From Escherichia coli (GTDB taxonomy: Bacteria; Pseudomonadota; Gammaproteobacteria; Enterobacterales; Enterobacteriaceae), in NCBI RefSeq assembly GCF_024298765.1, contig NZ_CP101211.1: a DNA stretch of 64,000 nucleotides, one strand, 5' to 3'. The notes under the pieces are model-generated. The model ran no database searches. It worked only from the letters and a program-made list of their open reading frames with translations, and was not told the origin of the DNA. A program made the translations under genes and the position numbers. Positions within the stretch are counted from its first letter, which is position 1; the number at the start of each line of letters is the position of its first letter. Positions 5,063-35,081 of the stretch are shown piece by piece.

Positions 5063-6247
5063 TCATGACTGTCCCTTGTTCATCTTATCAGCATGCTTAC
5101 GCAGGTACTCTTTCAGGTCAGCATGAGCGTTGATGATATCGTTCATTTCATCATTGGTCAGAACAAGCGTGTAAGTATCAGTACTGACAGATTCACCTTC
5201 TTTAAGCTTGGCTTCTTCAGCAATACGTTCAAAAATCGGGATCGCGGTGTCTGCAATGACGGTCACAGTCTTTTTGTTCAGAACGCTGGACATGGAAGGT
5301 GCTTTACCTGCCGGGTTCTGTTTAGGAGCGCTGTCCTTTGGAGCTGGAGCCGGTTCCTGTACCGGTGGCGTATCCAGCGTCTCCGTATTGCTTTCATCGT
5401 TCAGTTGATCCGGTACCGGGGTGTTATCGGTAGTATCATCTGCCGGTTGCTCAGCACCGATGTTTTCCGGAGTCTGCGGATCTGCCATGCGCTCTTCTAC
5501 CTTGGCAGCTTTGACGAATTTCAGCGTGTTTTTCGTCGCCTTGCCATAGATGGAGATCGCTTTGTTGATGTTATCTACCGCATCCTCACCGCTGTACATA
5601 TACTCGTCCAGTGCAACGTACATGCTCACCTGATCGCTCACAAGCATGGTCTGTAGTTCAGAAGGCAGGTCCAGTACGCGAACCATCTGGCGAAGATGCT
5701 GCTCTGATTTACCACGTTTTTTTGCCAGTTCCGCAAAGGTCTTAGGCTCTTCTTTATCTTCAACCAGACGCTTAATTGAAAGCGCTTCAGCTACGACAGA
5801 CAGCGCCAGGTTGGAGTTGCCGGTCAGGGTGAAGAGTTCTGCTTTTGAAGCGCTACCGCGAAACTCTTCGCAGCGAATACGAGTAATGCGTTCACGCCCT
5901 TCTGCTTCCAGCTGGCGGTTTGCAATAGCGATGGAACGGATACGGCAAGCCCCCTGACGCAGTACAGGTACGCCATTAACCATCTGAACAACGATAGGCG
6001 TCACGCTGAACGGGTCTTCCATGTAGGCATCGGCCAGGCTGTTCAGGTGTTCCACAACGTGAGGCATTGAATAGTAGAGCTCGCCCATACCGGCCGTGCG
6101 GGTGTTAAAGCCTTCCTGCTCTACAACAACCGAAGGGTCAATGATAAGGCCGTTGCCTTTACGGGCACCGTTACCAGTGCGTTCCAGGTAACCACGAAGG
6201 CTGATTTCGTTGCTGTTGTTTTTTACTTCAGTTTCGATTGCGGACAT
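5063..6247 (-). CDS. ParB-like nuclease domain protein (394 aa)
   Basis: ParB/Srx-type N-terminal box (GVPVLRQGACRIRS, compare paralog VRQGHCRLK at 58095..59258); Pro/Asp-rich acidic linker; two palindrome copies upstream. Confidence 0.75.
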   Translation of the reverse strand: MSAIETEVKNNSNEISLRGYLERTGNGARKGNGLIIDPSVVVEQEGFNTRTAGMGELYYSMPHVVEHLNSLADAYMEDPFSVTPIVVQMVNGVPVLRQGACRIRSIAIANRQLEAEGRERITRIRCEEFRGSASKAELFTLTGNSNLALSVVAEALSIKRLVEDKEEPKTFAELAKKRGKSEQHLRQMVRVLDLPSELQTMLVSDQVSMYVALDEYMYSGEDAVDNINKAISIYGKATKNTLKFVKAAKVEERMADPQTPENIGAEQPADDTTDNTPVPDQLNDESNTETLDTPPVQEPAPAPKDSAPKQNPAGKAPSMSSVLNKKTVTVIADTAIPIFERIAEEAKLKEGESVSTDTYTLVLTNDEMNDIINAHADLKEYLRKHADKMNKGQS

Positions 6248-6335: not shown

Positions 6336-6350
6336 AAAAAGTAACTTTTT
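6336..6350. promoter_or_regulatory. AAAAAGTAACTTTTT palindrome copy
   Basis: exact palindrome ~90 bp upstream of ParB-like start. Confidence 0.5.
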
Positions 6351-6462: not shown

Positions 6463-6475
6463 AAAAGTTACTTTT
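6463..6475. promoter_or_regulatory. AAAAGTTACTTTT palindrome copy
   Basis: second copy ~215 bp upstream of ParB-like start, with the extended form ...AGAAAAGTTACTTTTCCGG. Confidence 0.5.
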
Positions 6476-6839: not shown

Positions 6840-7348
6840 CTTGTTCTCCTCAATCATTATTAAAACCAGCGGATTTAGTTTCTGGCGCTCCATCTGCTGA
6901 CCGGCTTTCCCAGAGAGCAGCGATGTGTCGGGTTCTTTTTCTCATTTTATCGTTTTCATCGGGCCCATCCGGGCGTATAAGAGACCGATTTGGCATGTTT
7001 AGGAAACGTACTGGCGTAATTAAAAGCTGAGGTTGGATTTGGAATAAAAGGATGCTTTTCCCGTTTGTCGGGTCTTTCGCCACCGCTGCACGATGATTCT
7101 GTCAGGCATTCTGCGCCCTCCCAGGCTGCACATCTGGAAACAAGCGTTGGGATGTTCCCTTCCCCTGCTCACCGTAGAAAGATCGGCAAGTCCCGACGGT
7201 CGTTCCGTACGAGCCGGGTCCAAATAATGAATAAATAAAACGCCGCTTCAATTGTATTGACAATAGAAGTCAGGAGGATCATAGTGTCATTCATGGTGCG
7301 GCTTTCGCACCACCGCCCCGGCGGTACCGGGCAGAACTGGAGTACCTC

Positions 7349-8293
7349 ATGAAACTTTCCCGTCAGACGACTTCTGATACTTCTGTTGATGGCCGTTCAC
7401 GCGCATATGCCTGGGGCCGTGTCCATTATTTCATTATCGAACATGCACCAATGGCTGAGCTGGTCGCTATTGACGAGCTGCTGGAAAAAGCTGGCTGGAG
7501 CAATGACGGCTGTCCGAACTATGAGAAAGATGACGAGTTTGGTAATGCTGGTTACAGCTGTGGTTACTGGATCGATATTGACAGCGTGGGAAGCTTCAAG
7601 GCTGACTACAAACGTCTTAAGGGGGAGATTAGTGCGCATATCGCCTCAAAGGCGGCAGAGGTGGAGATCCGCGTACTGGACTCGATGTCCGACAAAGAAT
7701 GTAAAGATGTTGCCTCGGTGGCATCTACTGTTCGCCGTGACTTACGTACGCAGTCCGAATCGCTTCATTCACTGCGTACAATCGTAACGGTTGATCATTA
7801 CAATCCCTATGTGACCACCAGCCGCCCGCTGAGCATTTCCGCCTGGACACTTATCCACGACTGTCTGAAAACAGGCACCATCAATGACGTCTGTTCACGG
7901 TTGAGTTCATTAATCCTGCACTCTGAAGCCGCGATTGCCCGTTGTAAGGGAAGCTCCGACTACTCTTCGGAACACGCTCAGCTATCGTTTTTTGCTGGTA
8001 ACGACTATGTCACCAGACGCACCCTTGTTGATGCAGCTCACGAAGAGGCTCTGCGAATGAACCGCCGCTTTGATGAACGCATTGCAATGAACGCGGATTC
8101 TGATGCCAGAAGGCTCCAGTGCGAATTCAACCTTAGCAACCATGTCGTACAGCGTAGGACCGTTGAATCTGCTCATATCCAGGCACTCAATGAAGACGTC
8201 ACCCGTTCACAGGCGGAACCACGCTGCCCTGGAAAGCTTCTTCTGAATATGACCAGTCATGAGGAAGTGCGGGACTCACTGAGCGCCTGTTAG
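7349..8293 (+). CDS. hypothetical protein (314 aa)
   Basis: first gene of a plus-strand four-gene block; TTGACA-like hexamer upstream. Confidence 0.5.
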   Translation: MKLSRQTTSDTSVDGRSRAYAWGRVHYFIIEHAPMAELVAIDELLEKAGWSNDGCPNYEKDDEFGNAGYSCGYWIDIDSVGSFKADYKRLKGEISAHIASKAAEVEIRVLDSMSDKECKDVASVASTVRRDLRTQSESLHSLRTIVTVDHYNPYVTTSRPLSISAWTLIHDCLKTGTINDVCSRLSSLILHSEAAIARCKGSSDYSSEHAQLSFFAGNDYVTRRTLVDAAHEEALRMNRRFDERIAMNADSDARRLQCEFNLSNHVVQRRTVESAHIQALNEDVTRSQAEPRCPGKLLLNMTSHEEVRDSLSAC

Positions 8294-13505: not shown

Positions 13506-13817
13506 TTATCGCATATAACGCTGTTGCATAAACAGATACAGATAACCCTCAGGAGAAAACATGCAAAGGTTATCAGTGATAACCGCATCCAGATACCGAG
13601 TGTCAGTCTGTAAACGTTTTATCACCAGAAAATGTGCTGCCGCAGCCTTAATGCCAGAACTACCGTTTACAACATTATGTATACCCGCTTCGAATAACGA
13701 ACGAGCATGAATTACCTTTTCCCGGGCCGCTTCGATCTCCGCATTAATAACGCATTGCCGCGCCTGGATGACTGCCTCTCCGGTTAAATCGCGGAAATTC
13801 ATTAGAGATGTGATCAT
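13506..13817 (-). CDS. hypothetical protein (103 aa)
   Basis: ORF in minus-strand operon. Confidence 0.4.
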   Translation of the reverse strand: MITSLMNFRDLTGEAVIQARQCVINAEIEAAREKVIHARSLFEAGIHNVVNGSSGIKAAAAHFLVIKRLQTDTRYLDAVITDNLCMFSPEGYLYLFMQQRYMR

Positions 13818-14039: not shown

Positions 14040-14240
14040 TTATAAGAGGAGTACTGGCAAAGCTTTGCCAAGTACTTCGGCGGTTGTGTCTACGATTTTA
14101 CGGATGTCATCGATCTGCGAAGGCTTATTCAACACCACCGTAAAAAGCTCTCCTTCGTTATCAGCCTGCTCGCAGTTTCCGTATCGGCTCCCGTCGTACA
14201 GCTGCACAATACGTGACATAGAAGACTTTGTTTGTTTCAT
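14040..14240 (-). CDS. small protein, distant member of the PMTLNDLS paralog family
   Basis: weak similarity to 14280..14504. Confidence 0.35.
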   Translation of the reverse strand: MKQTKSSMSRIVQLYDGSRYGNCEQADNEGELFTVVLNKPSQIDDIRKIVDTTAEVLGKALPVLLL

Positions 14241-14279
14241 GGCTTTGCACCTGCTTTTAGGCAGTTTGGTTACTGGTTA

Positions 14280-14504
14280 TCAGAAGCTGGTTTCATGCGC
14301 TTCCGGCTGGGACACGAACTGGTATTTGACGCCGCCAGGCACACCTACTGCTTCGGCAATAGAGTCGCAAAGCCGCGATAAATCATTTAGTGTCATCGGA
14401 TATTCAATATCTACAGAATATAAAGCACCTGCATTTTCAGCATCTTCGATGTTTTTATACTGGGCACTAAATATAGCAATGGTCTGAATTTCGTGGTTAT
14501 GCAT
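14280..14504 (-). CDS. small conserved protein (PMTLNDLS...AVGxPGGxKY family)
   Basis: clear paralog of 20246..20485. Confidence 0.5.
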   Translation of the reverse strand: MHNHEIQTIAIFSAQYKNIEDAENAGALYSVDIEYPMTLNDLSRLCDSIAEAVGVPGGVKYQFVSQPEAHETSF

Positions 14505-14558
14505 GAACCGGTCCTTATTAAATTATAAAAGCCACCCGAGAGTGGCCTGAGTTGAAAC

Positions 14559-14762
14559 TTAAATCTGTGAAGTATTTTTGAGAGATTTTTTGCGATCCAG
14601 ATGCCGGGCAACAATGGTTCCGATAACAAGTAGCATGATGACCGCACTGAAGAAGGTGCTGTCAGGGACGCCCTGGAAAAAATCACTGAAACTGTAAACA
14701 ATAAAAATCAATGCGCAAAAATAGAAAACGATACGAACATAAGGGGTAAAAAACATTTTCAT
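14559..14762 (-). CDS. small membrane protein (67 aa, two TM segments)
   Basis: hydrophobic; first gene after palindrome at 14904. Confidence 0.4.
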   Translation of the reverse strand: MKMFFTPYVRIVFYFCALIFIVYSFSDFFQGVPDSTFFSAVIMLLVIGTIVARHLDRKKSLKNTSQI

Positions 14763-14903
14763 CGGTTGCCTTCCATTCAGGGAGAATTCTCAGTAATTAC
14801 ATCACACCTGAAGAGAAACTATTTTCGTATAAATGAGCATTTTCGACATATCAGAGGGGGGGTTTACTCATAAATGAGGTAGTAAGGGTCACACTTGAGG
14901 TGA

Positions 14904-14914
14904 AAGTTACTTTC
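14904..14914. promoter_or_regulatory. AAAGTTACTTT palindrome copy
   Basis: ...GTGAAAGTTACTTTCCTGG...; ~145 bp upstream of 14559..14762. Confidence 0.5.
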
Positions 14915-14941
14915 CTGGCTGCGAACGAACTATCTCAAATG

Positions 14942-15235
14942 TTAGAGGTGTGCGTTCGCCTTGAGAGCCTCATGCCCTGAGGAGCTCAACTTGAGCCGAT
15001 AGTATAAACCTGGCTCCAGATGGCTTGCTGGCTGGCATAACTCCACGAGGCCGAGCCGGAACAGGACCGGAGAGCTCCTGCACGTCACATCATCAGGATT
15101 CCCCATAAACGTACGCCGTTCTCTGGCCCGTCTGAAATTGCCAGAGATATCATAGACCGTGCCGGATGCCATCCGTCGTAACACGTAAATCTGTGCCATT
15201 GTAAGCTTCTGGGCGGAACTGCTTAAACCTGACAT
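14942..15235 (-). CDS. hypothetical protein (97 aa)
   Basis: ORF. Confidence 0.4.
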   Translation of the reverse strand: MSGLSSSAQKLTMAQIYVLRRMASGTVYDISGNFRRARERRTFMGNPDDVTCRSSPVLFRLGLVELCQPASHLEPGLYYRLKLSSSGHEALKANAHL

Positions 15236-15314
15236 ACCTTCCCCTCCTTATATAAAACAATCCGCCAGCAGCTCGACTGGCGGACAATGTTTGACTGGCA
15301 ACAGCAAGGACATA

Positions 15315-15806
15315 CTATTTAGTGACAAGTTTGATCTTGGTTTCACTCATTCGAAGTCGAAACTCCTGAAAACCCTGCTCTACCGCTAACTCCAGCCACT
15401 CAACGGGAATGGTATAGCTACAATCAGACCCACCCAAAGCGGCATCACAAGCGTAATCCCAGTCCTCATCCAGTTTTGGATTCATCCCCTGGGCGTAAGC
15501 CACAGTATCGCGGGATGCGGGAGAGCCCTCAAGCTCAGCATTAGTGATCAGGTATACACCATGACTGTGCGCGAGAAGCACTTTTGGCACCAGATGTGTG
15601 CTGGCAATTTTTGAGGATGAGGGAAAGAAAACCCTACCAGCTTTACGCGCCTCTTCTTCAGTCTGTCCCTCAGCGTTAAGGAGGGCTCCCCCCGGATAGC
15701 ATGCCGGGTCATAGATCTGATCTGCGGTGACCGAAAACGTTTTTGCGGTGCGAATTTCTTCGATCAGTTTATTAATATCCGCCATTTCAAATACGAGAGT
15801 GGTCAC
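15315..15806 (-). CDS. hypothetical protein (163 aa)
   Basis: ORF. Confidence 0.5.
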   Translation of the reverse strand: MTTLVFEMADINKLIEEIRTAKTFSVTADQIYDPACYPGGALLNAEGQTEEEARKAGRVFFPSSSKIASTHLVPKVLLAHSHGVYLITNAELEGSPASRDTVAYAQGMNPKLDEDWDYACDAALGGSDCSYTIPVEWLELAVEQGFQEFRLRMSETKIKLVTK

Positions 15807-16003
15807 AGGCTTACTCTCCCTCTTCAGTGGACAACATCAGATACTTTGTTGCCAGCAGAAGCTCTCCCACATCCTTGAGGGACAATTCAGCTTTGCCTTC
15901 TACGGCAAGCTGCAAGCGCTGTCGAATTGCATGAACAGAATCTGAAGATAAAGATGCCATTTTGCGCAAAACGGCATTAGCCTTTTCTGGTAATGACTCC
16001 AAC

Positions 16004-16507
16004 TTATTGATAGTGTTTTATGTTCAGATAATGCCCGATGACTTTGTCATGCAGCTCCACCGATTTTGAGAACGACAGCGACTTCCGTCCCAGCCTTGCC
16101 AGATGTTGTCTCAGATTCAGATTATGTCGCTCAATGCGCTGAGTGTAACGCTTGCTGATAACGTGCAGCTTTCCCTTCAGGCGTGATTCATACAGCGGCC
16201 AGCCATCCGTCATCCATACCACGACCTCAAAGGCCGACAGCAGGCTCAGAAGACGCTCCAGTGTGGCCAGAGTGCGTTCACCGAAAACGTGCGCCACAAC
16301 TGTCCTCCGTATCCTGTCATACGCGTAAAACAGCCAGCGCTGACGTGATTTAGCACCGACGTAGCCCCACTGTTCGTCCATTTCAGCGCAGACAATCACA
16401 TCACTGCCCGGTTGTATGCGCGAGGTTACCGACTGCGGCCTGAGTTTTTTAAATGGCGGAAAATCGTGTTGAGGCCAACGCCCATAATGCGGGCTGTTGC
16501 CCGGCAT
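16004..16507 (-). CDS. insB: IS1 InsB
   Basis: matches IS1 InsB. Confidence 0.9.
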
Positions 16508-16701
16508 CCAACGCCATTCATGGCCATATCAATGATTTTCTGGTGCGTACCGGGTTGAGAAGCGGTGTAAGTGAACTGCAGTTGCCATGTTTTACGGCAG
16601 TGAGAGCAGAGATAGCGCTGATGTCCGGCGGTGCTTTTGCCGTTACGCACCACCCCGTCAGTAGCTGAACAGGAGGGACAGCTGATAGAAACAGAAGCCA
16701 C
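16426..16701 (-). CDS. insA: IS1 InsA
   Basis: [30 protein letters not shown]... matches IS1 InsA. Confidence 0.9.
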
Positions 16702-16948
16702 TGGAGCACCTCAAAAACACCATCATACACTAAATCAGTAAGTTGGCAGCATCACCGCCTTTTCTACAGCAGGATACAGAATTTCTGAGTTGGTATTATC
16801 TTCGTCATTATCAAAGATAATTTCAGAATCCATATTGATGTTATCTTCAAGCCAGCTTGAAAGCACTTCAAGTAATGACATCACCTTTTCAATTTGCATA
16901 TCGCCTCCTCTGTTAATGTGAAACAAATATAACAAAGTGGCTTACCCG

Positions 16949-16963
16949 GCTAATAACCTGAGC
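16949..16963 (-). promoter_or_regulatory. GGTTATTAGCC promoter-proximal element with TATATT 16 bp downstream
   Basis: also forms one arm of a long hairpin (TAACCTGAGCAGAAAGTT / AACTTTTCTGCTCAGGTTA). Confidence 0.45.
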
Positions 16964-17414
16964 AGAAAGTTTTCGCACTTTGTTTGAAAACAACTTTTCT
17001 GCTCAGGTTAATGTTAAAGTCGCTGTGTAAAAGATAAAGGGCACTAAAGATGATTTAAGCATCAAACAGACTAAATCGGATTCCGTCTTTTATATCGCTT
17101 TTAAAATAGAATGAATGAAATATAAATTTAGCGTTTATGATTGAACGCTGTAGAGGTTGATTTATCCAGTGATATTCAGTTTGGGGCCTTAAAAAGGTTT
17201 TATTTTGGATTCGAATTACAAAGGGAGCACCGACATTTTTCTGGGGGCTCCCGCAGAGAAAAAGCGGTGAGGCTATGAAGACGAAGAGGAGGTATTCGAC
17301 GAAATACTGTATGGCCACAGGAGAGCTTCAGCACCCATATCCTGCCGTCTCGCTCGCCTGTAATGATTTCAACATGTACAACGTCATACCACGTAGTTGT
17401 ATTTCTCACTTTGT

Positions 17415-17735
17415 TTATGCTTCCTGACACCGTGTGAACGCAATCTTCGTCTGGATGCGTTCATAGATGGAAAACTGCCTTTCAATGGAACCGGCATTAG
17501 ACAGTAATTCATGAAGCTCAGCAGAGTCTGTATCGGGAACGATAGCTACAGAAACTCCATATCTCCGTCCAATTTTGATTAGGTGCGCAAGCTGTTCTTT
17601 TTCGGATTCTGTGAGCATTGCCAGATCTCTTCCGGACACCTGCTCTATAAACGAACCAAGGTTTTTGGGAAAAAAGGGTTCGGCATCAGAGTTATGTGCT
17701 GGGCGCGTCTGCGGCTTATCGAAGCTATTGGGCAT
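17415..17735 (-). CDS. hypothetical protein (106 aa)
   Basis: ORF ~150 bp downstream of palindrome at 17887. Confidence 0.45.
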   Translation of the reverse strand: MPNSFDKPQTRPAHNSDAEPFFPKNLGSFIEQVSGRDLAMLTESEKEQLAHLIKIGRRYGVSVAIVPDTDSAELHELLSNAGSIERQFSIYERIQTKIAFTRCQEA

Positions 17736-17886
17736 GAATAGAACCTATACAGTTAGAGAACTGGAGAATGGATAAAGACTCTATGAAAATCAGTTGTGCT
17801 ACACTCGAATGCTAATCAAGCTTTATGATGGCTTTAGTAGGGATGGCCGTCAACTTAAACCGATAAGAAGGGAGCCATTTATCGTT

Positions 17887-17897
17887 AAAGTAACTTT
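17887..17897. promoter_or_regulatory. AAAGTAACTTT palindrome copy
   Basis: ...GTTAAAGTAACTTTCCCGG... Confidence 0.5.
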
Positions 17898-17914
17898 CCC
17901 GGATGATGCTCTTT

Positions 17915-18142
17915 TTACGAAATAAGTTTCTCACACTCCTGTATAAGAGTCGCCCTGGAACGAGATCGACTGGCTTTGCTTAATGAAGAGCGTAGTTGAT
18001 GTTCATCAACCCCATCAGCGATAAACTGACCGATTTTTGTTTCAAGCCGCTGCATTGCCTCGTAAAGCTTGGCATCCGCATTATTTTTAAGAAACCTCAG
18101 TATATAATCAGCAATAATTTGGACGGGAGTGAACTTATACAT
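17915..18142 (-). CDS. hypothetical protein (75 aa)
   Basis: ORF. Confidence 0.35.
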   Translation of the reverse strand: MYKFTPVQIIADYILRFLKNNADAKLYEAMQRLETKIGQFIADGVDEHQLRSSLSKASRSRSRATLIQECEKLIS

Positions 18143-18369
18143 TATGTATCCTTAAGACGTTGTGTTAAATGATTCAAAAAAATTTATAACCAGACGTAAA
18201 TTATTATACATAAGTAAGCACTTTAGCTAACAAGCTGGAGGAGTGAATTTCGGTTAGCAACTATATTTTAGAAGCTGATTGCTGAATAGACAAAGCCCGG
18301 CTTACCGGGCATTCATTTAATTAGATGCTAGAAATCTGACCCGTCGTCTGACTTTTATTCCAGGCAGAG

Positions 18370-18981
18370 TTAGGAACTAATAATGATGGCCTGGTCAGTT
18401 TGAGGAAGCCGGTTTCCTCTGATAAATGCAGGGTGGTTTAAACGAGAAGAAGAAATGGTCATCGCCAGAAATGTCTCTTCACGCGAACGCAGAAATTCCC
18501 CCCATGAATAGGTTTCCCATACGTCGTGAGAAAGGTCGGATTCCTTTATGTACCGGGATTGCATTGTTGGCTCAAAATCGACAGGGGCTAAACTGTCATA
18601 GGATGGATGAACACGGTACCCCAATCCCTCCTCCGTCTGATGGTATGCATGTGCCAAAAGGACATCGTGGGAGACCAGGTCATAGTCGTTGTCCTGAACG
18701 AGCGTTTTTACGGTATGACTAATTTCCCCAAAGCCGTCTATTTCCCAGAGCGTTATCATTGTGAACTCAGCTAAAGTTCGTGGGCTCTTTACCAGAAAGC
18801 CATTTAATGCTCGTCGCCCCTTCAGCATGCCAACGTGGTAGGTCTTGTTGGGATAGGGTTTCATTGCCACCAGCGAATCAGCTTTAAGCTCAAGTGACAA
18901 TTCAGGGACAGACACGGACATGAGAGTACACTTGTTTTTCATATGGTGAAGAATACGTGGCACAAGATGCAGATACATCAT
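18370..18981 (-). CDS. hypothetical protein (203 aa)
   Basis: ORF. Confidence 0.5.
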   Translation of the reverse strand: MMYLHLVPRILHHMKNKCTLMSVSVPELSLELKADSLVAMKPYPNKTYHVGMLKGRRALNGFLVKSPRTLAEFTMITLWEIDGFGEISHTVKTLVQDNDYDLVSHDVLLAHAYHQTEEGLGYRVHPSYDSLAPVDFEPTMQSRYIKESDLSHDVWETYSWGEFLRSREETFLAMTISSSRLNHPAFIRGNRLPQTDQAIIISS

Positions 18982-19092
18982 TTTCTCCTTTTATGGATAT
19001 AACTGGCAGATCCTCAGCAGCATCAAAATAGTTAATAGACTTTTTTAATTGGTTAACCACTGTTGATTGACTTGTTTTATGTCTCTGAGAAA

Positions 19093-19659
19093 TTATTCGT
19101 TTTGTTTCTGTTCGTTATACTGCTCAAACCAGAAGACGACCGGTTTTACTACAATATGAAGCAAACCAAAACGTTCTGCGGTACGGAAATTCACGCTATA
19201 TGCGCGAGCCCGTTCAACCTGTTTGGTAATTTCATTTCTCATTCCTTCAACACTAAAAGCTCCTTTAAAAAGGTTGCAGGGAGCGCATGATGGAAATAAG
19301 TTTTCTATTGCATGCAGTTCAGGGTGCATAACCTTACCCGTACTTCGGGCAACATGAGTTACGCCGCTGCCGACCGGGGCTCTCACCAGTTCAAAGTCGC
19401 GTCGAACAGGCTCAACATGATCGGCATGCCACCCTTTTTCAGGAAGCTTGCAACCACAATAGGCACAACGCCCCCCAAATTTCATTCGCAGCTCAGCTCG
19501 CTGTATTTTAGAGATCTTATTTTTAGGTTTTGAGAACCTACCATCAGGTGATTCCGCTTTGGATAACTTTGCTGAGGGCTCAGGTAACTCAACTAAATTC
19601 CCGTTGATATTTATCACCTTGACCATATCATTTTCCGCCTTTACTAATCTCACGGGCAC
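19093..19659 (-). CDS. HNH endonuclease family protein (188 aa)
   Basis: CAYCGC...WHADHVEP...H...CAPCN arrangement typical of the HNH zinc-finger nuclease motif. Confidence 0.6.
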   Translation of the reverse strand: MPVRLVKAENDMVKVININGNLVELPEPSAKLSKAESPDGRFSKPKNKISKIQRAELRMKFGGRCAYCGCKLPEKGWHADHVEPVRRDFELVRAPVGSGVTHVARSTGKVMHPELHAIENLFPSCAPCNLFKGAFSVEGMRNEITKQVERARAYSVNFRTAERFGLLHIVVKPVVFWFEQYNEQKQNE

Positions 19660-19871
19660 AGGAGCTGGCTTAAGTAACCGCTGAAGTTAACAGCCACTGA
19701 CTGCCTCTACCCAGACCTTCTGTTTATACTCAATAGGCCACCCCTCTTTATCTGCCCGGATGACGCAATCATTTACCGTGGTGCGTGACCGGATACGAAC
19801 ATCAAGCGGAAGCGAATCGTTATCCACACGAGCCTGTGCCTCATTTAAAATGCGTAAAAACATCTCTTTGG

Positions 19872-20183
19872 TCATTCAGATACCCCCTCAACTTTGCGAA
19901 TTTTGATCAGATGAGGGCGATTCAGTTTACAAAGTTGTTCTGTCGCTTCATCAATCGAATTGAACCGATGAGCCTCTTCGATATTTAAAGTCCAGTATTT
20001 CGCTTTCCCTTCTCCCAGATCGGACTCAAAATAATTTCGCTTTACATCCATTTTTTTAGGCCTGCCATTTATCTTGACGACATTATGTCTGTCATCAAAA
20101 AGAAATTCGTCCCCCTCAAAAGTGATTAATACAAATGGCCCCTCAGGCTTGGAAGTCCGGGGACTTCCCATTTTCAAAGTCAT
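19872..20183 (-). CDS. hypothetical protein (103 aa)
   Basis: ORF. Confidence 0.4.
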   Translation of the reverse strand: MTLKMGSPRTSKPEGPFVLITFEGDEFLFDDRHNVVKINGRPKKMDVKRNYFESDLGEGKAKYWTLNIEEAHRFNSIDEATEQLCKLNRPHLIKIRKVEGVSE

Positions 20184-20245
20184 ACTTCAGCCTCTCGATA
20201 GAACTCATGAAACCTCAAATTAAAATGGACTCACACCACACTGAT

Positions 20246-20485
20246 TCAGTATTCCTCCTGAACCCCATTAGGCTCTGTTGTGATTTCATATTTAATACCG
20301 CCAGGTGCTCCCACAGCGTCCGCGACCGACTCACACAGCAGCGAGAGATCGTTGAGGGTCATTGGGTGTTCAATGTCCAGCGTGAAGAGTTTCCCGGCTT
20401 GCTTGGCGGCTGTCTTGTCAGCATGTTCAGCATTAAAAAGGTATACGGTGTGTTTTTCCTGAGCGGGGGTATTTTGATTTTGCAT
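20246..20485 (-). CDS. small conserved protein (PMTLNDLS...AVGxPGGxKY family)
   Basis: paralog of 14280..14504. Confidence 0.5.
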   Translation of the reverse strand: MQNQNTPAQEKHTVYLFNAEHADKTAAKQAGKLFTLDIEHPMTLNDLSLLCESVADAVGAPGGIKYEITTEPNGVQEEY

Positions 20486-20617: not shown

Positions 20618-20629
20618 AAAGTTACTTTT
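20618..20629. promoter_or_regulatory. AAAGTTACTTTT palindrome copy
   Basis: ~135 bp upstream of 20246..20485. Confidence 0.5.
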
Positions 20630-20734: not shown

Positions 20735-23119
20735 TTATACGACCTGCCTGACCATCCTCATCAGAAGGCGGTTTAACAGTCCTTTCGCTGTCGGGCGATT
20801 GCTATCGACATAGTAAAAACCTGTTTTGGTCGTACCGTGAGCACTGCTCAGCACCCTCAGTTCCCAGATAACGTCACGGATAACGCCGCCATTTTCTGGC
20901 TTAAGGCATTCAGATAAATGGCGCATGAAACGAGCTCTTACGGCACGGTAATAGCGGAACTCCTCTGGCTGGTTAGTATTTTCTTTCACCCGGAGTCGCT
21001 GGTTACACAGAGTTAGAACTGCATCCATCATTCCCGCCTTCAGCTTCGCCTGGATCGCACCTTGTTGCTGTTCCCTCTCACCTTCGAGTAACGTTAAGAT
21101 TCTTTCTCCGAGTGCCGTCTTGTTGTGTACGTGCAACTGTACACAGGCAGCTACGCATGCCCAGAATCTGAACTTTTTTATCTGTCCACGCAATTTCCGG
21201 GCTACAACCTGACGGTATGCAGTATCGCTGAGTATTTTAAAACGCCGACTGGCAACCAGCTCTGGAAGCGACACTCTTTCGCCTATCCCCAGGCGGGAAA
21301 AGGTTTGTCCCCGTTGTGCGAGACGATGATAGACAGCGCCCTTCCCTTTTGAAATTCGGACCGCGCCATAACGAAGAAGATACTGAGCAGCAGTCGTTGG
21401 AGTAAACTCACCGTCAGCGATGCTCTGGCGTAACCCGTCGTATTCATGCCAGATAATCCAGGACGCCGTATCTTCTTCAACAGTCAGCTCATCCTCTTCC
21501 TCGAATGCCACGACGACAGAACTGCTCTCTCCGGTCTTTAGGCTACGTGAAGCCCTGGGGTCAGCCTGCCCGTCAAAATAGGTCATCAGCGGCAACGTAT
21601 CAGTCAGTCCATCATAAGCTGTACCGAACCGGCCTCCGGGCAGTTTCATCCAGAGTGGAGCTGGCATTGGTGTACGGGCCACAGGCAGCATGTCAGGCTC
21701 ATCCTCAAGAAGGTCCAGATCGGCCTCTTCCCAGACTCTGCGATAGATCTCAATTGCCCGAAACGGGCGAGGGTTGAAACAGTGCAACGACCAGAGGAAA
21801 TCAACGTGGATCACGTTTGCTTCATGTACAAGCCGAAATTGTGGCTCAGCCATACGACGGTTATAAGCCGTATCGTCCACCTCGCCGGAAAGTAGCTTTC
21901 TGCGATGCTTTGCCGCACGTCTGGCTTCAACATAATCAAGGCTGCAACAGACATGAAAAAGACGTTCAGTCAGGGACGAAGAAAAGATATTGGGTTGAAG
22001 ACGCACATACCCGCCTTCGAACACTTTACGACCGATATAATCCCGCAGGCTCCAGTCGTACTGGATCTTAGAAAGAAATCGCTGAAGACGACTTAGGCCT
22101 GCCTGATAACCATATTTCTCAGGGTCAGTGCGAAGGAGCGTTTCCATTGAATGGTCAACCCCTACGGCTGTGCAAAGCGAGCACCCATATCTAGCCCCAC
22201 AAGCTGAGGTTCGCGTGGGTTTCTCCGGCGACCAGATACACTCTCCGGTGGCGTCTTTATAAAGCGTTGCCAGGCTGAAGTTATCCGGCATAAAGCTTGG
22301 TAAAGGGAAGCGGGATTCGGAACCACAGGCCATTAGAAAAGACCAGATGTCCTGAGTGCGCCACTCCTTTACTGGATAGAGTTCACCACCGTGCTCAGTC
22401 AGGGTTACTTTCCTCGCCTGCCCTCCCATTTTGAGGATATTTCCGGCCCTTCGGGCACTTTCATCATCCCTGGAGCCCAGCATCAGGCATACCCTGCTTC
22501 GTACGGATGCCGGGGCGTTTTTTAGATAACGAGCTTTGGCCTTGCGCAGGGGGGCGATTTTGTAGTCGGTTGAGCACTGACGGGTTGAAGAATTAGTCCA
22601 GGTCGGAAGTCCACGTCCAGTCAGAATGCGGCCTACCCAGCTCTGCGTAAGAGACGGTTGGGCGACAAGGACTGTGACCGGTAGCTGGTGTTCAGCAATG
22701 AACATTCTAAGCTGGTTGAGAACCTGTGAAGCCTGATAGTGCATCTCAGGGTTTTCGATCAGCGTATCGGACATCTGAATGAAATGATGTTCGCTGATAT
22801 TTGTGCCGTTACGTACTGCCCTGATCAATGCCATCAGAAATAGGTGAAGAAGAGAATGGGAGTCTTTACCGCCACTGTATCCCACGCACATCGTCCATCC
22901 GTCCGTAATAGCCTGATAAATAGCAGATGTGGCTGACGTGACCAGAGAAGAAAGACTCACAGTCTCCTTTTCATCGGTATAGTTCAGATCGGCATCGGTT
23001 GTCAGGGTCTCCCAAACATCAGCCCATTTATCATGTTTCAAAATGGCAGCATTAGCCGCCTCAGGAAAAATAACTTCTGAGGGTAATTCAAGGAATGAGT
23101 CACTTTTTTCAATAAACAT
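20735..23119 (-). CDS. PAPS reductase-like PP-loop protein with long C-terminal extension (IbrA/DndC-like, 794 aa)
   Basis: PP-loop motif GYSGGKDS near N-terminus; size and architecture like IbrA-type PAPS-reductase/DUF3440 proteins. Confidence 0.7.
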   Translation of the reverse strand: MFIEKSDSFLELPSEVIFPEAANAAILKHDKWADVWETLTTDADLNYTDEKETVSLSSLVTSATSAIYQAITDGWTMCVGYSGGKDSHSLLHLFLMALIRAVRNGTNISEHHFIQMSDTLIENPEMHYQASQVLNQLRMFIAEHQLPVTVLVAQPSLTQSWVGRILTGRGLPTWTNSSTRQCSTDYKIAPLRKAKARYLKNAPASVRSRVCLMLGSRDDESARRAGNILKMGGQARKVTLTEHGGELYPVKEWRTQDIWSFLMACGSESRFPLPSFMPDNFSLATLYKDATGECIWSPEKPTRTSACGARYGCSLCTAVGVDHSMETLLRTDPEKYGYQAGLSRLQRFLSKIQYDWSLRDYIGRKVFEGGYVRLQPNIFSSSLTERLFHVCCSLDYVEARRAAKHRRKLLSGEVDDTAYNRRMAEPQFRLVHEANVIHVDFLWSLHCFNPRPFRAIEIYRRVWEEADLDLLEDEPDMLPVARTPMPAPLWMKLPGGRFGTAYDGLTDTLPLMTYFDGQADPRASRSLKTGESSSVVVAFEEEDELTVEEDTASWIIWHEYDGLRQSIADGEFTPTTAAQYLLRYGAVRISKGKGAVYHRLAQRGQTFSRLGIGERVSLPELVASRRFKILSDTAYRQVVARKLRGQIKKFRFWACVAACVQLHVHNKTALGERILTLLEGEREQQQGAIQAKLKAGMMDAVLTLCNQRLRVKENTNQPEEFRYYRAVRARFMRHLSECLKPENGGVIRDVIWELRVLSSAHGTTKTGFYYVDSNRPTAKGLLNRLLMRMVRQVV

Positions 23120-25665: not shown

Positions 25666-25678
25666 AAAAGTAACTTTT
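25666..25678. promoter_or_regulatory. AAAAGTAACTTTT palindrome copy
   Basis: exact 13-bp palindrome. Confidence 0.5.
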
Positions 25679-26302: not shown

Positions 26303-27553
26303 TTAAGTCCGATACAGTTCGGCGAGCTCATCCAGCATGGGGTTACTCTTATATCCCGGTGCGGCCGTAAAAAGGTTTCGGGAAATCGCCAGCCACTCCA
26401 TGATTTTGTCCGTCGCCAGCCAACGTCTGCCAAGTCGCTCGGCTGCGATGGGGACTTTATGCAAGCCAGCGAAGGGATCTACAACAAGATCTCCCGGCTC
26501 TGTCAAAAACTCAATCAGAAACGCTGCAAGCCTGGTAGGAGACGTTGCACCGTGCAGCGGAAAACCGAGCTCGCGGGCAATGGAATGGCAAAATCTCGTA
26601 TCAGCGCAGCTATTGCCGTAAAACAAAGTATTCTTGGGGATCGTTCCTTCTGTTTTATTTCCAAAGGAACCGCTTTTAAGCTGGTACGCCCCATCACCAT
26701 AAAAGGTCGTGCGATTTTCACCGCCTGCTGCCTGCAATTTTAGATGCTGGTCTGAATGCGGTTGTAGTACACGTAAGTTGTTTGAACGAACCTTACTCGC
26801 ATCATTGGTAAACCACAGCACAGGCTCATACGATGAGCAGAGCTGCACCCGTTGCTTACATGCCCAGTGCGTTGGCGATGGGGGCTTACTGCGATTCACC
26901 CACTGAAGCCTGTCCATGAGCTCAAGCCCCAGCTTGTCACATAATGCCAGTGTCAGACGCTCCAGATACAGAGAACGTGAAGGCCTACCCCTATTAAAGC
27001 TATCTTGAGTGATATTCAATGCCACACTTGCGCCCGGTACAAGCTGTTTCACGATCGGTTCGAGGATACGCAGAAGCCAGTCAATATAAGCCTGCTCGCC
27101 ACGCCCCCCTCCGTGCCCGTAGTCTCTTGAATTTCGAAGGAGGTAAGGTGGCGAGGTCAGGCAAAGATGAATTTGCTCGGTGATATTGCTGAAGAAGGCA
27201 TAGGCGTTTCCAAAAACCGATGCCCCAAGAGAAGTTGAGAAACCGACAACACAGAGCTTTTCCCATGACTCATGCAGGTTTGTTTTCGTCTTAGAGGCGT
27301 ATCTCCAGACGCCCCGTTTTTCTGGAACGCGTTCGATGACCCCGGCCTGACGGAGAGTCTGCTGAAACCAGCGAACCTTATGTTTGACGCCGCTGGTTCT
27401 GGTTTTATCTGACCCAAATTCTTTCAGTTCGTGCAATTCGGCATCCGACATGCCAGTTTTACGCTGCACTTCGCGATAAAGCTCGTCGTTGGTCAACGGC
27501 GATTCGGAGGCAGCGTAGATATGCGCAATTAAGTCCGTATTAATCGTACTCAT
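26303..27553 (-). CDS. orphan DNA methyltransferase, N4/N6 beta-class (416 aa)
   Basis: TSPPY catalytic motif and C-terminal DPFAG...ATD SAM-binding motif; no adjacent restriction endonuclease recognised. Confidence 0.8.
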   Translation of the reverse strand: MSTINTDLIAHIYAASESPLTNDELYREVQRKTGMSDAELHELKEFGSDKTRTSGVKHKVRWFQQTLRQAGVIERVPEKRGVWRYASKTKTNLHESWEKLCVVGFSTSLGASVFGNAYAFFSNITEQIHLCLTSPPYLLRNSRDYGHGGGRGEQAYIDWLLRILEPIVKQLVPGASVALNITQDSFNRGRPSRSLYLERLTLALCDKLGLELMDRLQWVNRSKPPSPTHWACKQRVQLCSSYEPVLWFTNDASKVRSNNLRVLQPHSDQHLKLQAAGGENRTTFYGDGAYQLKSGSFGNKTEGTIPKNTLFYGNSCADTRFCHSIARELGFPLHGATSPTRLAAFLIEFLTEPGDLVVDPFAGLHKVPIAAERLGRRWLATDKIMEWLAISRNLFTAAPGYKSNPMLDELAELYRT

Positions 27554-29877: not shown

Positions 29878-29890
29878 AAAAGTAACTTTT
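29878..29890. promoter_or_regulatory. AAAAGTAACTTTT palindrome copy
   Basis: exact palindrome ~170 bp upstream of 29331..29708. Confidence 0.5.
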
Positions 29891-34947: not shown

Positions 34948-35081
34948 GGGTTGTCTCCTGATCAGGTTCCCCATGATACTTTTTCAGTGTTCGAGATCTT
35001 TTCGGGAAAATAGCTAATTTTAATGTTTTTCTTTTCTGCCCGGCGGGACTTGTTTTGTTTACGTAAATGCAAAAATACAAG

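What the first reader, a model, noticed from the sequence alone, without database searches (positions are those of the whole stretch)
14040..20485. Small-protein paralog family (DIEYPMTLNDLS...AVGxPGGxKY) in palindrome-headed operons
14280..14504 and 20246..20485 are clear paralogs, and 14040..14240 is a weaker relative. Both operons begin with the AAAAGTWACTTT palindrome, and one of them leads into the HNH nuclease gene. Conserved small proteins of unknown function duplicated within such an island are good candidates for inhibitors or modulators of host defence proteins.
Basis: seen in the sequence. Interest (0 to 1): 0.4.

Follow-up and report, generated by a model that had tools for sequence, protein, structure and literature searches.

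The report
Orphan small-protein family on IncHI plasmids
Three related genes for tiny acidic proteins of unknown function are real, conserved genes of IncHI resistance plasmids; each family copy nearly always follows a gene for a tiny membrane protein, and the genes sit behind a plasmid-wide 13-bp DNA palindrome, but their role in host defence is still only a guess.

Summary
The window is IncHI2 plasmid backbone, next to transfer region Tra1.

**Observation:** confirmed. A74 (14280-14504) and B79 (20246-20485) are 50% identical. C66 (14040-14240) is a true distant relative. Both operons lie behind the core palindrome AAAGTWACTTT.

**The genes are real.**
- They are under purifying selection between IncHI1 and IncHI2.
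- They occur in 1,299 PLSDB plasmids.
- The inferred R27 orthologues are derepressed 7-14-fold in an htdA mutant, like tra genes.

**The family is an orphan.** It has no Pfam, NCBIfam, PHROG, PADLOC or PDB match. A confident β-α-β-α-β model has no significant structural neighbour. The family is confined to Enterobacterales H-type plasmids.

**New points.**
- In six lineages, and weakly a seventh, a family gene directly follows a ~67-aa two-helix membrane protein gene (14559-14762).
- The palindrome (gAAAAGTWACTTTTc) is a dispersed backbone element: 14 copies against 0.03 expected, 12 of 14 intergenic, and conserved across diverged lineages.
- Two perfect copies precede a ParB-HTH protein gene (5063-6247). 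This resembles a KorB-type regulon.

**Function:** unproven. The best guess is transfer-coupled, stoichiometric binding proteins working with the membrane partner. Anti-defence is plausible but untested.

The parts
14280..14504 (-). A74: family member, 74 aa, pI 4.4. It is the most conserved paralogue, 80% aa identity to IncHI1.
14040..14240 (-). C66: divergent family member, 66 aa, 39 nt downstream of A74.
20246..20485 (-). B79: family member, 79 aa, pI 4.6. It is the first gene behind the palindrome at 20618.
14559..14762 (-). TM67: 67-aa protein with two hydrophobic helices and a basic C-terminal tail. It is the first gene of the TM67-A74-C66 operon. A homologue directly precedes a family gene in six lineages, and a weakly similar one in a seventh.
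14529..14548 (-). GC-rich stem-loop followed by a U-run, between TM67 and A74. A hairpin is present at the same place in R27, L004 and L009, with different sequences.
14903..14913 (.). Palindrome core AAAGTTACTTT, 141 nt upstream of TM67.
20618..20628 (.). Palindrome core AAAGTTACTTT, 133 nt upstream of B79, in the gap after the DndC-like gene.
19872..20183 (-). 103-aa ORF after B79. It matches phrog_30913 (unknown function), E=2.8e-38.
19687..19875 (-). 62-aa ORF that overlaps the previous ORF by 4 nt. It has no family hit.
19093..19659 (-). HNH endonuclease gene in the B79 operon (Pfam HNH 22.2 bits; phrog_2118 E=1.7e-55).
18370..18981 (-). DUF6012 gene. DUF6012 recurs near family genes in L004 and L014.
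20735..23119 (-). 794-aa DndC-like / PAPS-reductase-domain protein. Its gene lies within two genes upstream of a family gene in five of the seven lineages; L014 and L016 lack it.
5063..6247 (-). 394-aa ParB-HTH protein, the candidate binder of the palindrome.
6338..6348 (.). Palindrome copy 96 nt upstream of the ParB-HTH gene.
6464..6474 (.). Second palindrome copy, 222 nt upstream of the ParB-HTH gene.
17887..17897 (.). Palindrome copy heading the operon 106 aa - DUF957 (split by IS1) - DUF3085.
25667..25677 (.). Palindrome copy heading the operon that runs toward the DndC-like gene.
29879..29889 (.). Palindrome copy heading the operon that contains the Mrr_N/N6_N4 methyltransferase gene.

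Best explanation
A74, B79 and C66 are genuine, expressed genes of an IncH-plasmid-specific orphan family. The proteins are about 62-81 aa, soluble, mostly acidic, and fold as β-α-β-α-β.

They belong to a conserved module. A ~67-aa inner-membrane hairpin protein (TM67; a basic C-terminal tail, read by eye in the window's copy) is encoded first. After a stem-loop come one or two family proteins. B79 is a detached extra copy.

Both operons lie behind a copy of a dispersed 13-bp palindrome, gAAAAGTWACTTTTc. This is probably the operator of a plasmid ParB/KorB-like protein (window 5063-6247).

In IncHI1 R27 the inferred orthologues are repressed through HtdA together with the transfer genes. They should therefore be made in a burst in transfer-competent donors and in cells that have just received the plasmid and still lack HtdA.

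I propose that the proteins have no enzymatic activity and act by stoichiometric protein binding, possibly as an A/C hetero-oligomer at the membrane with TM67. In that role they would help the incoming or transferring plasmid, for example by neutralising a conserved host factor such as a defence protein.

Shown: paralogy, conservation, selection, fold class, synteny, palindrome statistics, and regulation in R27 (through an inferred ORF mapping).

Inferred: binding rather than catalysis, the partnership with TM67, the burst on entry, the identity of the palindrome binder, and any anti-defence role.
For: Real genes:
- Between IncHI2 and IncHI1, pN/pS is 0.11/0.80 for A, dN/dS is 0.29 for B, and pN/pS is 0.35/0.85 for C.
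- The family is present in 1,299 of 72,556 PLSDB plasmids, 1,209 of them predicted conjugative.
- All three ORFs are annotated in RefSeq.

Expression and regulation (background):
- htdA mutant against wild type at 25 °C: R0092 12.3x, R0093 14.4x, R0091 5.3x, R0073 7.2x.
- The next upstream genes change much less: R0090 2.8x and R0089 1.8x.
- traI changes 11x.
- There is no such effect at 37 °C.

Not an enzyme or a known family:
- No hits in Pfam, NCBIfam, PHROG or PADLOC.
- No PDB sequence relative.
- The only invariant or near-invariant columns look structural: Ala in helix 1 and the N-D cap of helix 2.
- AF2 model: pLDDT 81, β-α-β-α-β.

Acidity: net charge -7 to -13 for the A and B types.

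Module:
- A TM67 homologue directly precedes a family gene in the window, R27, L004, L007, L009/L018 and L016, and weakly in L014.
- A and C are adjacent in IncHI1, IncHI2 and L009.
- A natural tandem fusion, P0073, exists.

Island context: orphan methyltransferases, a DndC-like enzyme, Hok, Lar and HNH genes.

Palindrome:
- 14 copies against 0.03 expected.
- 12 of 14 are intergenic, P=3e-6.
- Positions ahead of both operons are conserved in R27 although synonymous sites are saturated.
- Double copies lie ahead of the ParB-HTH gene in three lineages.
Against: - There is no direct evidence for any binding partner or any defence system.
- A is far more conserved than TM67 (80% against 28% identity between IncHI1 and IncHI2). 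This is odd if the two bind each other through specific contacts.
- B79 has no membrane partner in IncHI2.
- The A-linker-C model was poor: pLDDT 55, pTM 0.33.
- The R-number mapping in R27 was done by counting ORFs between IS anchors and was not read from the original annotation.
- Palindrome-headed R0104 (2.6x) and R0113 (1.4x) respond weakly to htdA, and the R27 F-operon promoter has no exact copy. The palindrome is therefore not simply the HtdA/TrhRY site.
- The direction of transfer from oriT, and so whether this is the leading region, was not established.
Confidence: 0.35

Rival explanations
1. TM67 is a small membrane-damaging protein, either toxin-like as GhoT or Hok, or a class-II-holin-like hairpin with a basic C-terminal tail. 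The acidic family proteins are its cytosolic inhibitors. The module would then serve post-segregational killing, abortive infection or controlled permeabilisation rather than anti-defence.
For: - TM67 is 67 aa with two hydrophobic helices and a basic tail. It always lies immediately upstream of a family gene.
- The charges of the tail (basic) and of A74 (net -8) are complementary.
- A Hok gene lies in the same island.
- A hairpin between the two cistrons could set their expression ratio.
- The weak fold neighbours are ferredoxin-like, the class to which the GhoS antitoxin belongs (the GhoS fold is from my own knowledge).
Against: - No TA, holin or PADLOC model matches.
- A is conserved at 80% while TM67 is at 28%, unlike co-evolving toxin-antitoxin pairs.
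- B79 has no adjacent membrane gene in IncHI2.
- No endolysin gene is adjacent.
- No DNA-binding domain for autoregulation is present.
- The module is induced together with tra genes rather than expressed constitutively.
Confidence: 0.2
2. The family proteins are accessory or regulatory subunits of the neighbouring plasmid DNA-modification enzymes: the 794-aa DndC-like protein and the Mrr_N/N6_N4 methyltransferase. They would tune self-protective DNA modification.
For: - In IncHI2, IncHI1, L004, L007 and L009/L018 a family gene lies within one or two genes downstream of the ~800-aa DndC-like gene, which itself follows the methyltransferase gene.
- The DndC-like protein matches DndC models at E=4e-38.
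- R0071-R0073 are derepressed together in the htdA mutant.
Against: - A palindrome and a gap of about 250 bp separate the DndC-like gene from B79.
- The A/C pair lies 6 kb away, behind other genes.
- L014 and L016 carry family genes without a nearby DndC-like gene.
- Known Dnd systems need DndA, DndD and DndE, none of which resembles this family (my own knowledge; not tested here).
Confidence: 0.15
3. The module is a conjugation accessory function specific to the H-type transfer system. Examples would be a T4SS substrate, a chaperone or a mating-related membrane factor made in donors.
For: - The family is confined to MOBH/MPF_F H-type plasmids.
- The module lies next to Tra1.
- It is derepressed with tra genes in the htdA mutant, with similar fold changes.
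- TM67 is a membrane protein.
Against: - To my knowledge, published Tra1/Tra2 mutagenesis of R27 did not place essential transfer genes here. I did not check this in the library.
- Most non-tra R27 genes (106 of 170) are also HtdA-dependent, so co-regulation is weak evidence.
Confidence: 0.12
4. The ORFs are chance or decaying reading frames without function.
For: They are short, have no database family, and many truncated or frameshifted variants exist in public data.
Against: - Purifying selection persists across saturated synonymous divergence.
- Order and position are conserved in seven lineages.
- A confident fold is predicted.
- Microarray signals reach 7,103 units.
Confidence: 0.02

Closest known systems
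KorB (ParB family) and its 13-bp OB operators on IncP plasmid RK2
   Same: - A plasmid ParB-HTH protein.
- A 13-bp perfect palindrome dispersed over the backbone, mostly intergenic but also far from promoters and inside genes.
- Copies ahead of the regulator's own gene.
   Different: - The sequence differs: gAAAAGTWACTTTTc against TTTAGCSGCTAAA (the latter from my own knowledge).
- No binding has been shown.
- No Pfam ParB N-terminal domain hit was reported; only HTH_ParB matched.
- Three ParB-HTH paralogues exist, so the binder is ambiguous.
- No KorA or IncC partner was identified.
Leading-region anti-defence islands of conjugative plasmids (Samuel et al. 2024, PMC11541004), including ArdA, KlcA and PsiB
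   Same: - A long one-directional array of small genes next to the transfer origin region.
- Orphan methyltransferases in the array.
- Small acidic proteins of unknown function.
- Expression coupled to transfer.
   Different: - No ardA, klcA, psiB or ssb gene is annotated in the stretch.
- The direction of transfer, and hence leading status, is unknown for IncH.
- No Frpo-type element was examined.
- No inhibition has been shown.
AcaCD / SetCD regulons of the related MOBH elements (IncC plasmids, SXT/R391 ICEs)
   Same: A single short motif precedes many operons across the backbone, including non-transfer genes of unknown function. The relaxase family and mobI-oriT layout are shared.
   Different: - The motif here is a perfect palindrome with no fixed distance to start codons, ranging from about 10 to about 220 nt.
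- No exact copy lies upstream of the R27 F operon.
- The IncH activators TrhR and TrhY gave no Pfam hit.
Small membrane toxin plus protein inhibitor pairs (GhoT/GhoS type V TA; holin with a cytoplasmic antiholin such as T4 T/RIII)
   Same: A protein of about 60-70 aa with two transmembrane helices is encoded next to a small soluble protein. The soluble partner has a ferredoxin-like class of fold.
   Different: - There is no sequence or significant structural similarity.
- Gene order is opposite to ghoST (my own knowledge).
- The conservation rates of the two partners are mismatched.
- Toxicity is untested.

Membership tests
Known anti-defence protein families (ArdA, KlcA/ArdB, Ocr, Acr, Ugi-type DNA mimics) | Sequence or structural similarity to a characterised inhibitor | tested here: not met
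   - No Pfam, NCBIfam or PHROG hit.
- No PDB sequence hit.
Known anti-defence protein families | Demonstrated inhibition of a defence system | not testable with these tools
   This needs conjugation or phage assays in defined recipients.
Leading-region gene island | Genes co-oriented so that the transferred strand is the template | tested here: inconclusive
   The minus-strand block at window 422-37110 is transcribed toward Tra1 and mobI-oriT. This fits only if transfer proceeds from oriT through the relaxase operon, and that direction is not known.
Leading-region gene island | First DNA to enter the recipient | not testable with these tools
   No paper in the library gave the transfer polarity for IncH or IncA/C.
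HtdA / TrhR-TrhY regulon of IncHI1 R27 | Derepression in an htdA mutant at 25 °C but not at 37 °C | tested here: met
   PMC7366339 Table S4 gives R0073 7.2x, R0091 5.3x, R0092 12.3x and R0093 14.4x, with values between about -1.6x and +1.6x at 37 °C. The ORF-to-gene mapping was inferred by counting between IS10 and IS1 anchors.
KorB/ParB-type global regulon | Plasmid protein with a ParB HTH DNA-binding domain | tested here: met
   PF17762 scores 26.6 bits, above the cut-off of 22.6. Caulobacter ParB 6s6h matches at E=1.6e-4.
KorB/ParB-type global regulon | Dispersed palindromic operators, including autoregulatory copies | tested here: met
   - 14 copies in the window and 45 unique sites across lineages.
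- Double copies lie ahead of the ParB-HTH gene in IncHI2, R27 and L016.
KorB/ParB-type global regulon | The protein binds the palindrome and represses the flanking promoters | not testable with these tools
   This needs EMSA or ChIP-seq and reporter assays.
Toxin-antitoxin module | Match to a known toxin or antitoxin family | tested here: not met
   No significant hit for TM67, A74, B79 or C66.
Toxin-antitoxin module | Toxicity of one partner that is neutralised by the other | not testable with these tools
   An expression experiment is needed.
Ferredoxin-like / ACT-type α/β fold | Significant structural superposition | tested here: inconclusive

The most novel reading that the evidence does not exclude
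TM67 plus the A/C (and B) proteins form a previously unrecognised, membrane-anchored establishment or anti-defence module with a new small fold. It is fired in a burst when an IncH plasmid enters a naive cell. It also belongs to an undescribed KorB-like global regulon, in which a ParB-HTH protein binds about one palindrome per 4 kb of backbone, layered on the HtdA/TrhRY circuit of clinically dominant IncHI1 and IncHI2 resistance plasmids.
Probability: 0.15. Interest if true: 0.7.

Novelty: new variant of a known kind. Interest (0 to 1): 0.42.

Why it matters
IncHI2 and IncHI1 plasmids carry mcr-1, tet(X4), ESBL genes and typhoid multidrug resistance. Most of their backbone genes have no known function.

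This family is among the more conserved of the small backbone genes compared between IncHI1 and IncHI2. It is switched on with the transfer genes and has no homologue outside H-type plasmids. It is therefore a defined, testable candidate for a plasmid establishment function.

The dispersed palindrome and its candidate ParB-like binder would add a global control layer to IncH biology. That layer does not appear in the searchable literature. It could explain how more than 100 non-transfer genes are co-regulated.

Tried and rejected
- **Family libraries.** Pfam, NCBIfam, PHROG and PADLOC scans of A74, B79, C66 and TM67 gave nothing significant.
- **Solved structures by sequence.** A PDB profile search gave nothing.
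- **Heterodimer model.** An A-(GGGGS)5-C model built on a 4-row paired alignment reached pLDDT 55 and pTM 0.33, which is uninformative.
- **Fixed -10 element.** I tested for a -10 element at a set distance from the palindrome. There is no consistent spacing, only a minor cluster of -10-like hexamers directly abutting it in 8 of 36 sites. No canonical σ70 promoter lies near either operon head.
- **Palindrome as the TrhR/TrhY box.** Rejected as a simple model. The R27 F-operon promoter lacks an exact copy. Copies sit between convergent genes and inside genes. Palindrome-headed R0104 and R0113 respond weakly to htdA.
- **Rfam.** No RNA family in the window reached its gathering score.
- **Literature.**
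  - The 11-mer appears in no relevant paper.
  - Searching R0092, R0093 and R0073 as words found only reference numbers.
  - The IncHI1 proteomics supplements could not be mapped to these ORFs.
  - The transfer polarity of MOBH plasmids was not found.
- **Species-representative genomes.** The A2 scan found only 5 loci, all Enterobacteriaceae.

Full report
**What the window is.**
- The 6.9-kb stretch around the finding matches hundreds of large conjugative plasmids of Escherichia, Salmonella, Klebsiella and Enterobacter at 99-100% identity.
- The best full-length hit, pECJS-59-244, is typed IncHI2A / MOBH / MPF_F.
- On that plasmid the window starts at the end of transfer region Tra1. Tra1 runs mobI, MobH relaxase, coupling protein, then S49 peptidase and a NERD-domain protein. 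The presumed oriT lies upstream of mobI.
- The window then runs through a block of about 37 kb of almost exclusively minus-strand small genes to RepHI2 and Tra2.
- All three ORFs of the finding are annotated in RefSeq as hypothetical proteins.

**Observation check.**
- A74 and B79 share 32 of 64 residues (E=2e-26).
- C66 aligns to A74 at 34% (E=4e-10) and to B79 at 29% (E=1e-5).
- Against all 1,164 stop-to-stop ORFs of the window, the three find only one another. No fourth member exists.
- The 12-mer AAAAGTWACTTT gives 20 strand-matches against 0.03 expected. The 11-bp core AAAGTWACTTT occurs at 14 places.
- One exact copy lies 133 nt upstream of B79 (20618).
- The other operon is headed by a copy with the exact 11-bp core but G instead of the first A of the 12-mer (14903).
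- B79 is followed by a 103-aa ORF (phrog_30913, E=3e-38), a 62-aa ORF, an HNH nuclease gene and a DUF6012 gene.

**Are they real genes?** Yes.
- tblastn finds A74 in 1,299 of 72,556 PLSDB plasmids. Of these, 989 are at least 99% identical and 271 are 60-80% identical. Nearly all listed plasmids are 170-410 kb, and 1,209 are predicted conjugative.
- IncHI1 plasmids, including R27, have the same three genes in the same order.
- Between IncHI2 and IncHI1 the synonymous sites are saturated, yet the proteins are conserved:

| Protein | Selection measure | aa identity |
|---|---|---|
| A | pN 0.11, pS 0.80 | 80% |
| B | dN/dS 0.29 | 68% |
| C | pN 0.35, pS 0.85 | 48% |

- A is better conserved than every neighbour compared: DndC-like 75%, DUF3085 52%, TM67 28%, and the ParB-like protein 65%.

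**What family?** None is known.
- Pfam, NCBIfam, PHROGs and PADLOC give no hit. A PDB profile search gives none either.
- A profile search of 1.84 billion representative proteins returns only 26 hits at E of at most 1e-3. Most are fragments of the same proteins. Six are more distant small or tandem relatives, P0064, P0066, P0069, P0072, P0073 and P0077.
- A second search with a broader alignment returns 70 clusters. The clusters that carry a source name are all called hypothetical and come from Escherichia, Salmonella, Klebsiella, Enterobacter, Buttiauxella and Yersinia.
- Species-representative genomes hold five loci, all Enterobacteriaceae.
- AlphaFold2 gives a confident model (pLDDT 81). 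It has strands at 7-13, 28-33 and 59-64, helices at 19-24 and 39-53, and a disordered acidic tail.
- Across the whole family the only conserved columns are an Ala in helix 1 and the N-D cap of helix 2, plus hydrophobic positions. That argues against catalysis.
- The A and B types share a nearly invariant segment, (D/E)(I/V)E(Y/H)PMTLNDLSxLC(D/E)S(V/I)AxA(V/L)(G/D)xP(G/N)G(V/I)KY.
- The A and B types are acidic, with net charge -7 to -13 and pI 4.1-4.6. The C types are near neutral to mildly acidic.

**Context in relatives.**
- Contigs carrying the distant relatives are plasmid-like, with the same kind of one-directional array of small genes.
- In five lineages a family gene lies within two genes downstream of an ~800-aa PAPS-reductase-domain protein. 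That protein matches DndC models at E=4e-38. Its gene in turn follows an Mrr_N/N6_N4 methyltransferase gene.
- Neighbours include Hok, Lar_restr_allev, GmrSD_N fragments, DUF4145, DUF6012 and DUF4942.
- Most lineages have two family members.
- One protein, P0073, is a natural tandem fusion of two family domains. This suggests the domains work as a pair.

**The conserved membrane partner.**
- In the window, R27, L004, L007, L009/L018 and L016, the gene directly upstream of a family gene encodes a homologous protein of 66-68 aa (pairwise E down to 2e-21). L014 has a 67-aa ORF at that position with only weak similarity.
- These proteins have two hydrophobic segments. By eye they also share an FSD(F/I)F loop motif and a basic C-terminal tail.
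- In R27, and by position in L004, the B-type or only A/B-type copy follows a 154-aa gene. I examined only the R27 copy (R0072), which has two transmembrane helices.
- A GC-rich hairpin lies between the membrane-protein gene and the family gene in four lineages, with different sequences. In the window and R27 it is followed by a U-run.

**The palindrome.**
- The consensus from 45 unique sites in seven lineages is gAAAAGTWACTTTTc.
- In the window 12 of 14 copies are intergenic, although intergenic DNA is about 25% of the sequence (P=3e-6).
- Ten of them lie 96-227 nt upstream of the first gene of a minus-strand operon.
- The exact 11-mer is present at 4-7 copies per 16 kb in every related lineage examined.
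- In R27, copies sit ahead of the operons that contain the B-type and the TM-A-C genes, despite saturated neutral divergence.
- It is not a simple promoter element:
  - The distance to start codons ranges from about 10 to about 220 nt.
  - No -10 element occurs at a fixed offset.
  - Some copies lie between convergent genes or inside genes.
  - No exact copy lies upstream of the R27 F operon, whereas the R/H divergent region that contains oriT has two.
- No paper in the library contains the sequence in a plasmid context.

**A candidate binder.**
- The gene behind the double palindrome at 6338 and 6464 encodes a 394-aa protein with a ParB HTH domain. Pfam PF17762 scores 26.6 bits, above its cut-off. 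Caulobacter ParB 6s6h matches at E=1.6e-4.
- Its orthologues in R27 (65% identity) and in the L016 lineage (44%) are also preceded by two palindromes.
- Two further ParB-HTH paralogues lie at 58095-59258 and 62469-63524. The first of these is preceded by a one-mismatch copy.
- By analogy with KorB and its OB sites on RK2 (my own knowledge), I take the palindrome to be the operator of this protein. This is inference only.

**Regulation in R27.**
- Gibert et al. (PMC7366339) report that 139 of 181 expressed R27 genes, including 106 non-tra genes, are derepressed at 25 °C in an htdA mutant. HtdA counteracts the activators TrhR and TrhY.
- I mapped ORF numbers by counting. Eight RefSeq genes lie between IS10-right (R0085) and IS1 (R0094/95), and four lie between the DndC-like gene and IS10-left (R0076).
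- The fold changes in the htdA mutant at 25 °C are:

| R27 ORF | Inferred identity | Fold change |
|---|---|---|
| R0071 | DndC-like | 8.8 |
| R0072 | 154-aa membrane protein | 14.9 |
| R0073 | B type | 7.2 |
| R0089 | DUF3085, upstream of the palindrome | 1.8 |
| R0090 | upstream of the palindrome | 2.8 |
| R0091 | TM protein | 5.3 |
| R0092 | A type | 12.3 |
| R0093 | C type | 14.4 |
| traI | relaxase, for comparison | 11 |

- No such effect is seen at 37 °C.
- The step from R0089/R0090 up to R0091-R0093 falls at the palindrome.
- R0104, the inferred ParB-like gene, is high and nearly constitutive: 2,196 units rising to 5,624.

**Most likely mechanism (confidence about 0.35).**
- The family proteins are non-enzymatic binding proteins.
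- They are made with a small inner-membrane partner as part of the transfer-coupled regulon.
- HtdA is plasmid-encoded, so a cell that has just received the plasmid should express them in a burst. This is inferred and not shown.
- Their conserved face (helix 2, the loop and β3 of the A and B types) probably contacts a conserved partner. TM67 is too divergent to be that partner, so a host protein or a conserved plasmid protein is more likely.
- Anti-defence is compatible with the island's content but is unsupported by any direct test.

**Rivals.**
- A membrane toxin or holin-like protein with cytosolic inhibitors: 0.2.
- Accessory subunits of the DndC-like or methyltransferase enzymes: 0.15.
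- A conjugation accessory function: 0.12.
- Non-functional ORFs: about 0.02, contradicted by selection, synteny and expression.

**Comparison and novelty.**
- The proteins fail every testable membership criterion for known anti-defence, toxin-antitoxin or fold families.
- The regulatory layout resembles KorB/OB on IncP plasmids and, more loosely, the AcaCD/SetCD regulons of related MOBH elements.
- I rate the finding a new variant of a known kind. It is an orphan accessory module in a plasmid establishment-type island, under a dispersed-operator regime that appears undescribed for IncH plasmids.

**Limits.**
- All functional statements are inferential.
- The R27 ORF mapping was done by counting.
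- The transfer polarity is unknown.
- The heterodimer model was uninformative.

Noticed in passing
window 5063-6247 (-), 58095-59258 (-), 62469-63524 (-): Three paralogous ParB-HTH proteins lie on one plasmid. The first is preceded by two perfect palindromes. The second is preceded by a one-mismatch copy (AAAGTACCTTT, about 59340). None of the three is annotated as ParB in RefSeq.
   Followed up: partly
window 1289, 6338, 6464, 14903, 17887, 20618, 25667, 29879, 35083, 40800, 43024, 51195, 51260, 61203: There are fourteen copies of AAAGTWACTTT (consensus gAAAAGTWACTTTTc). The element is conserved in IncHI1 R27 and in more distant H-type lineages. Two copies lie in the trhR / mobI-oriT divergent region of R27 (108336, 108821). 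No literature mention was found.
   Followed up: partly
window 20735-23119 (-): The 794-aa protein annotated as a PAPS reductase family protein matches DndC models (E=4e-38). No other Dnd component was seen in the annotated regions, though this was not searched for systematically. It is conserved downstream of an Mrr_N/N6_N4 methyltransferase gene (26303-27553) in all H-type lineages that have it.
   Followed up: partly
window 14529-14548 (-); R27 L025 about 15981-15998; L004 about 6879-6901; L009 about 7937-7964: A GC-rich hairpin lies between the membrane-protein gene and the family gene in four lineages, with different sequences. It looks like a terminator in the window and in R27. Folding z-scores are weak, from -0.4 to -2.2.
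   Followed up: partly
window about 15988-16755: An IS1 insertion splits the DUF957 gene: residues 1-48 lie at 16899-16756 and residues 46-103 at 15987-15814. The gene is intact in pECJS-59-244, and the closest plasmids that align at 89% coverage and 100% identity differ here.
   Followed up: yes
window 19872-20183 (-) and 13506-13817 (-): Two small ORFs in or next to the family operons have phage relatives: phrog_30913 (E=3e-38) and phrog_8549 (E=3e-9). Both PHROGs are of unknown function.
   Followed up: no
A74 residues 65-74; B79 residues 70-79; relatives P0025, P0007: The A and B type proteins end in a low-confidence acidic tail that often terminates in an aromatic residue (ETSF, QEEY, ESDY, EDDF). 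The C types lack this tail. It may be a docking peptide. This was not tested.
   Followed up: no
L014 8001-8468: P0073 (155 aa) is a natural tandem fusion of two family domains. It lies on a plasmid-like contig with a Rep3_N initiator gene, DUF6012, DUF4942 and six palindrome copies.
   Followed up: partly
window 32557-34974 (-), 40500-42920 (+), 48582-51038 (-): There are three genes for large Ig-like-domain proteins. One was scanned against Pfam (Big_3_3, Big_3_2, DUF4165), and the other two are so named in the RefSeq annotation of pECJS-59-244. Two have palindrome copies upstream (35083; 51195 and 51260) and one has a copy 300 nt inside the ORF (40800).
   Followed up: no
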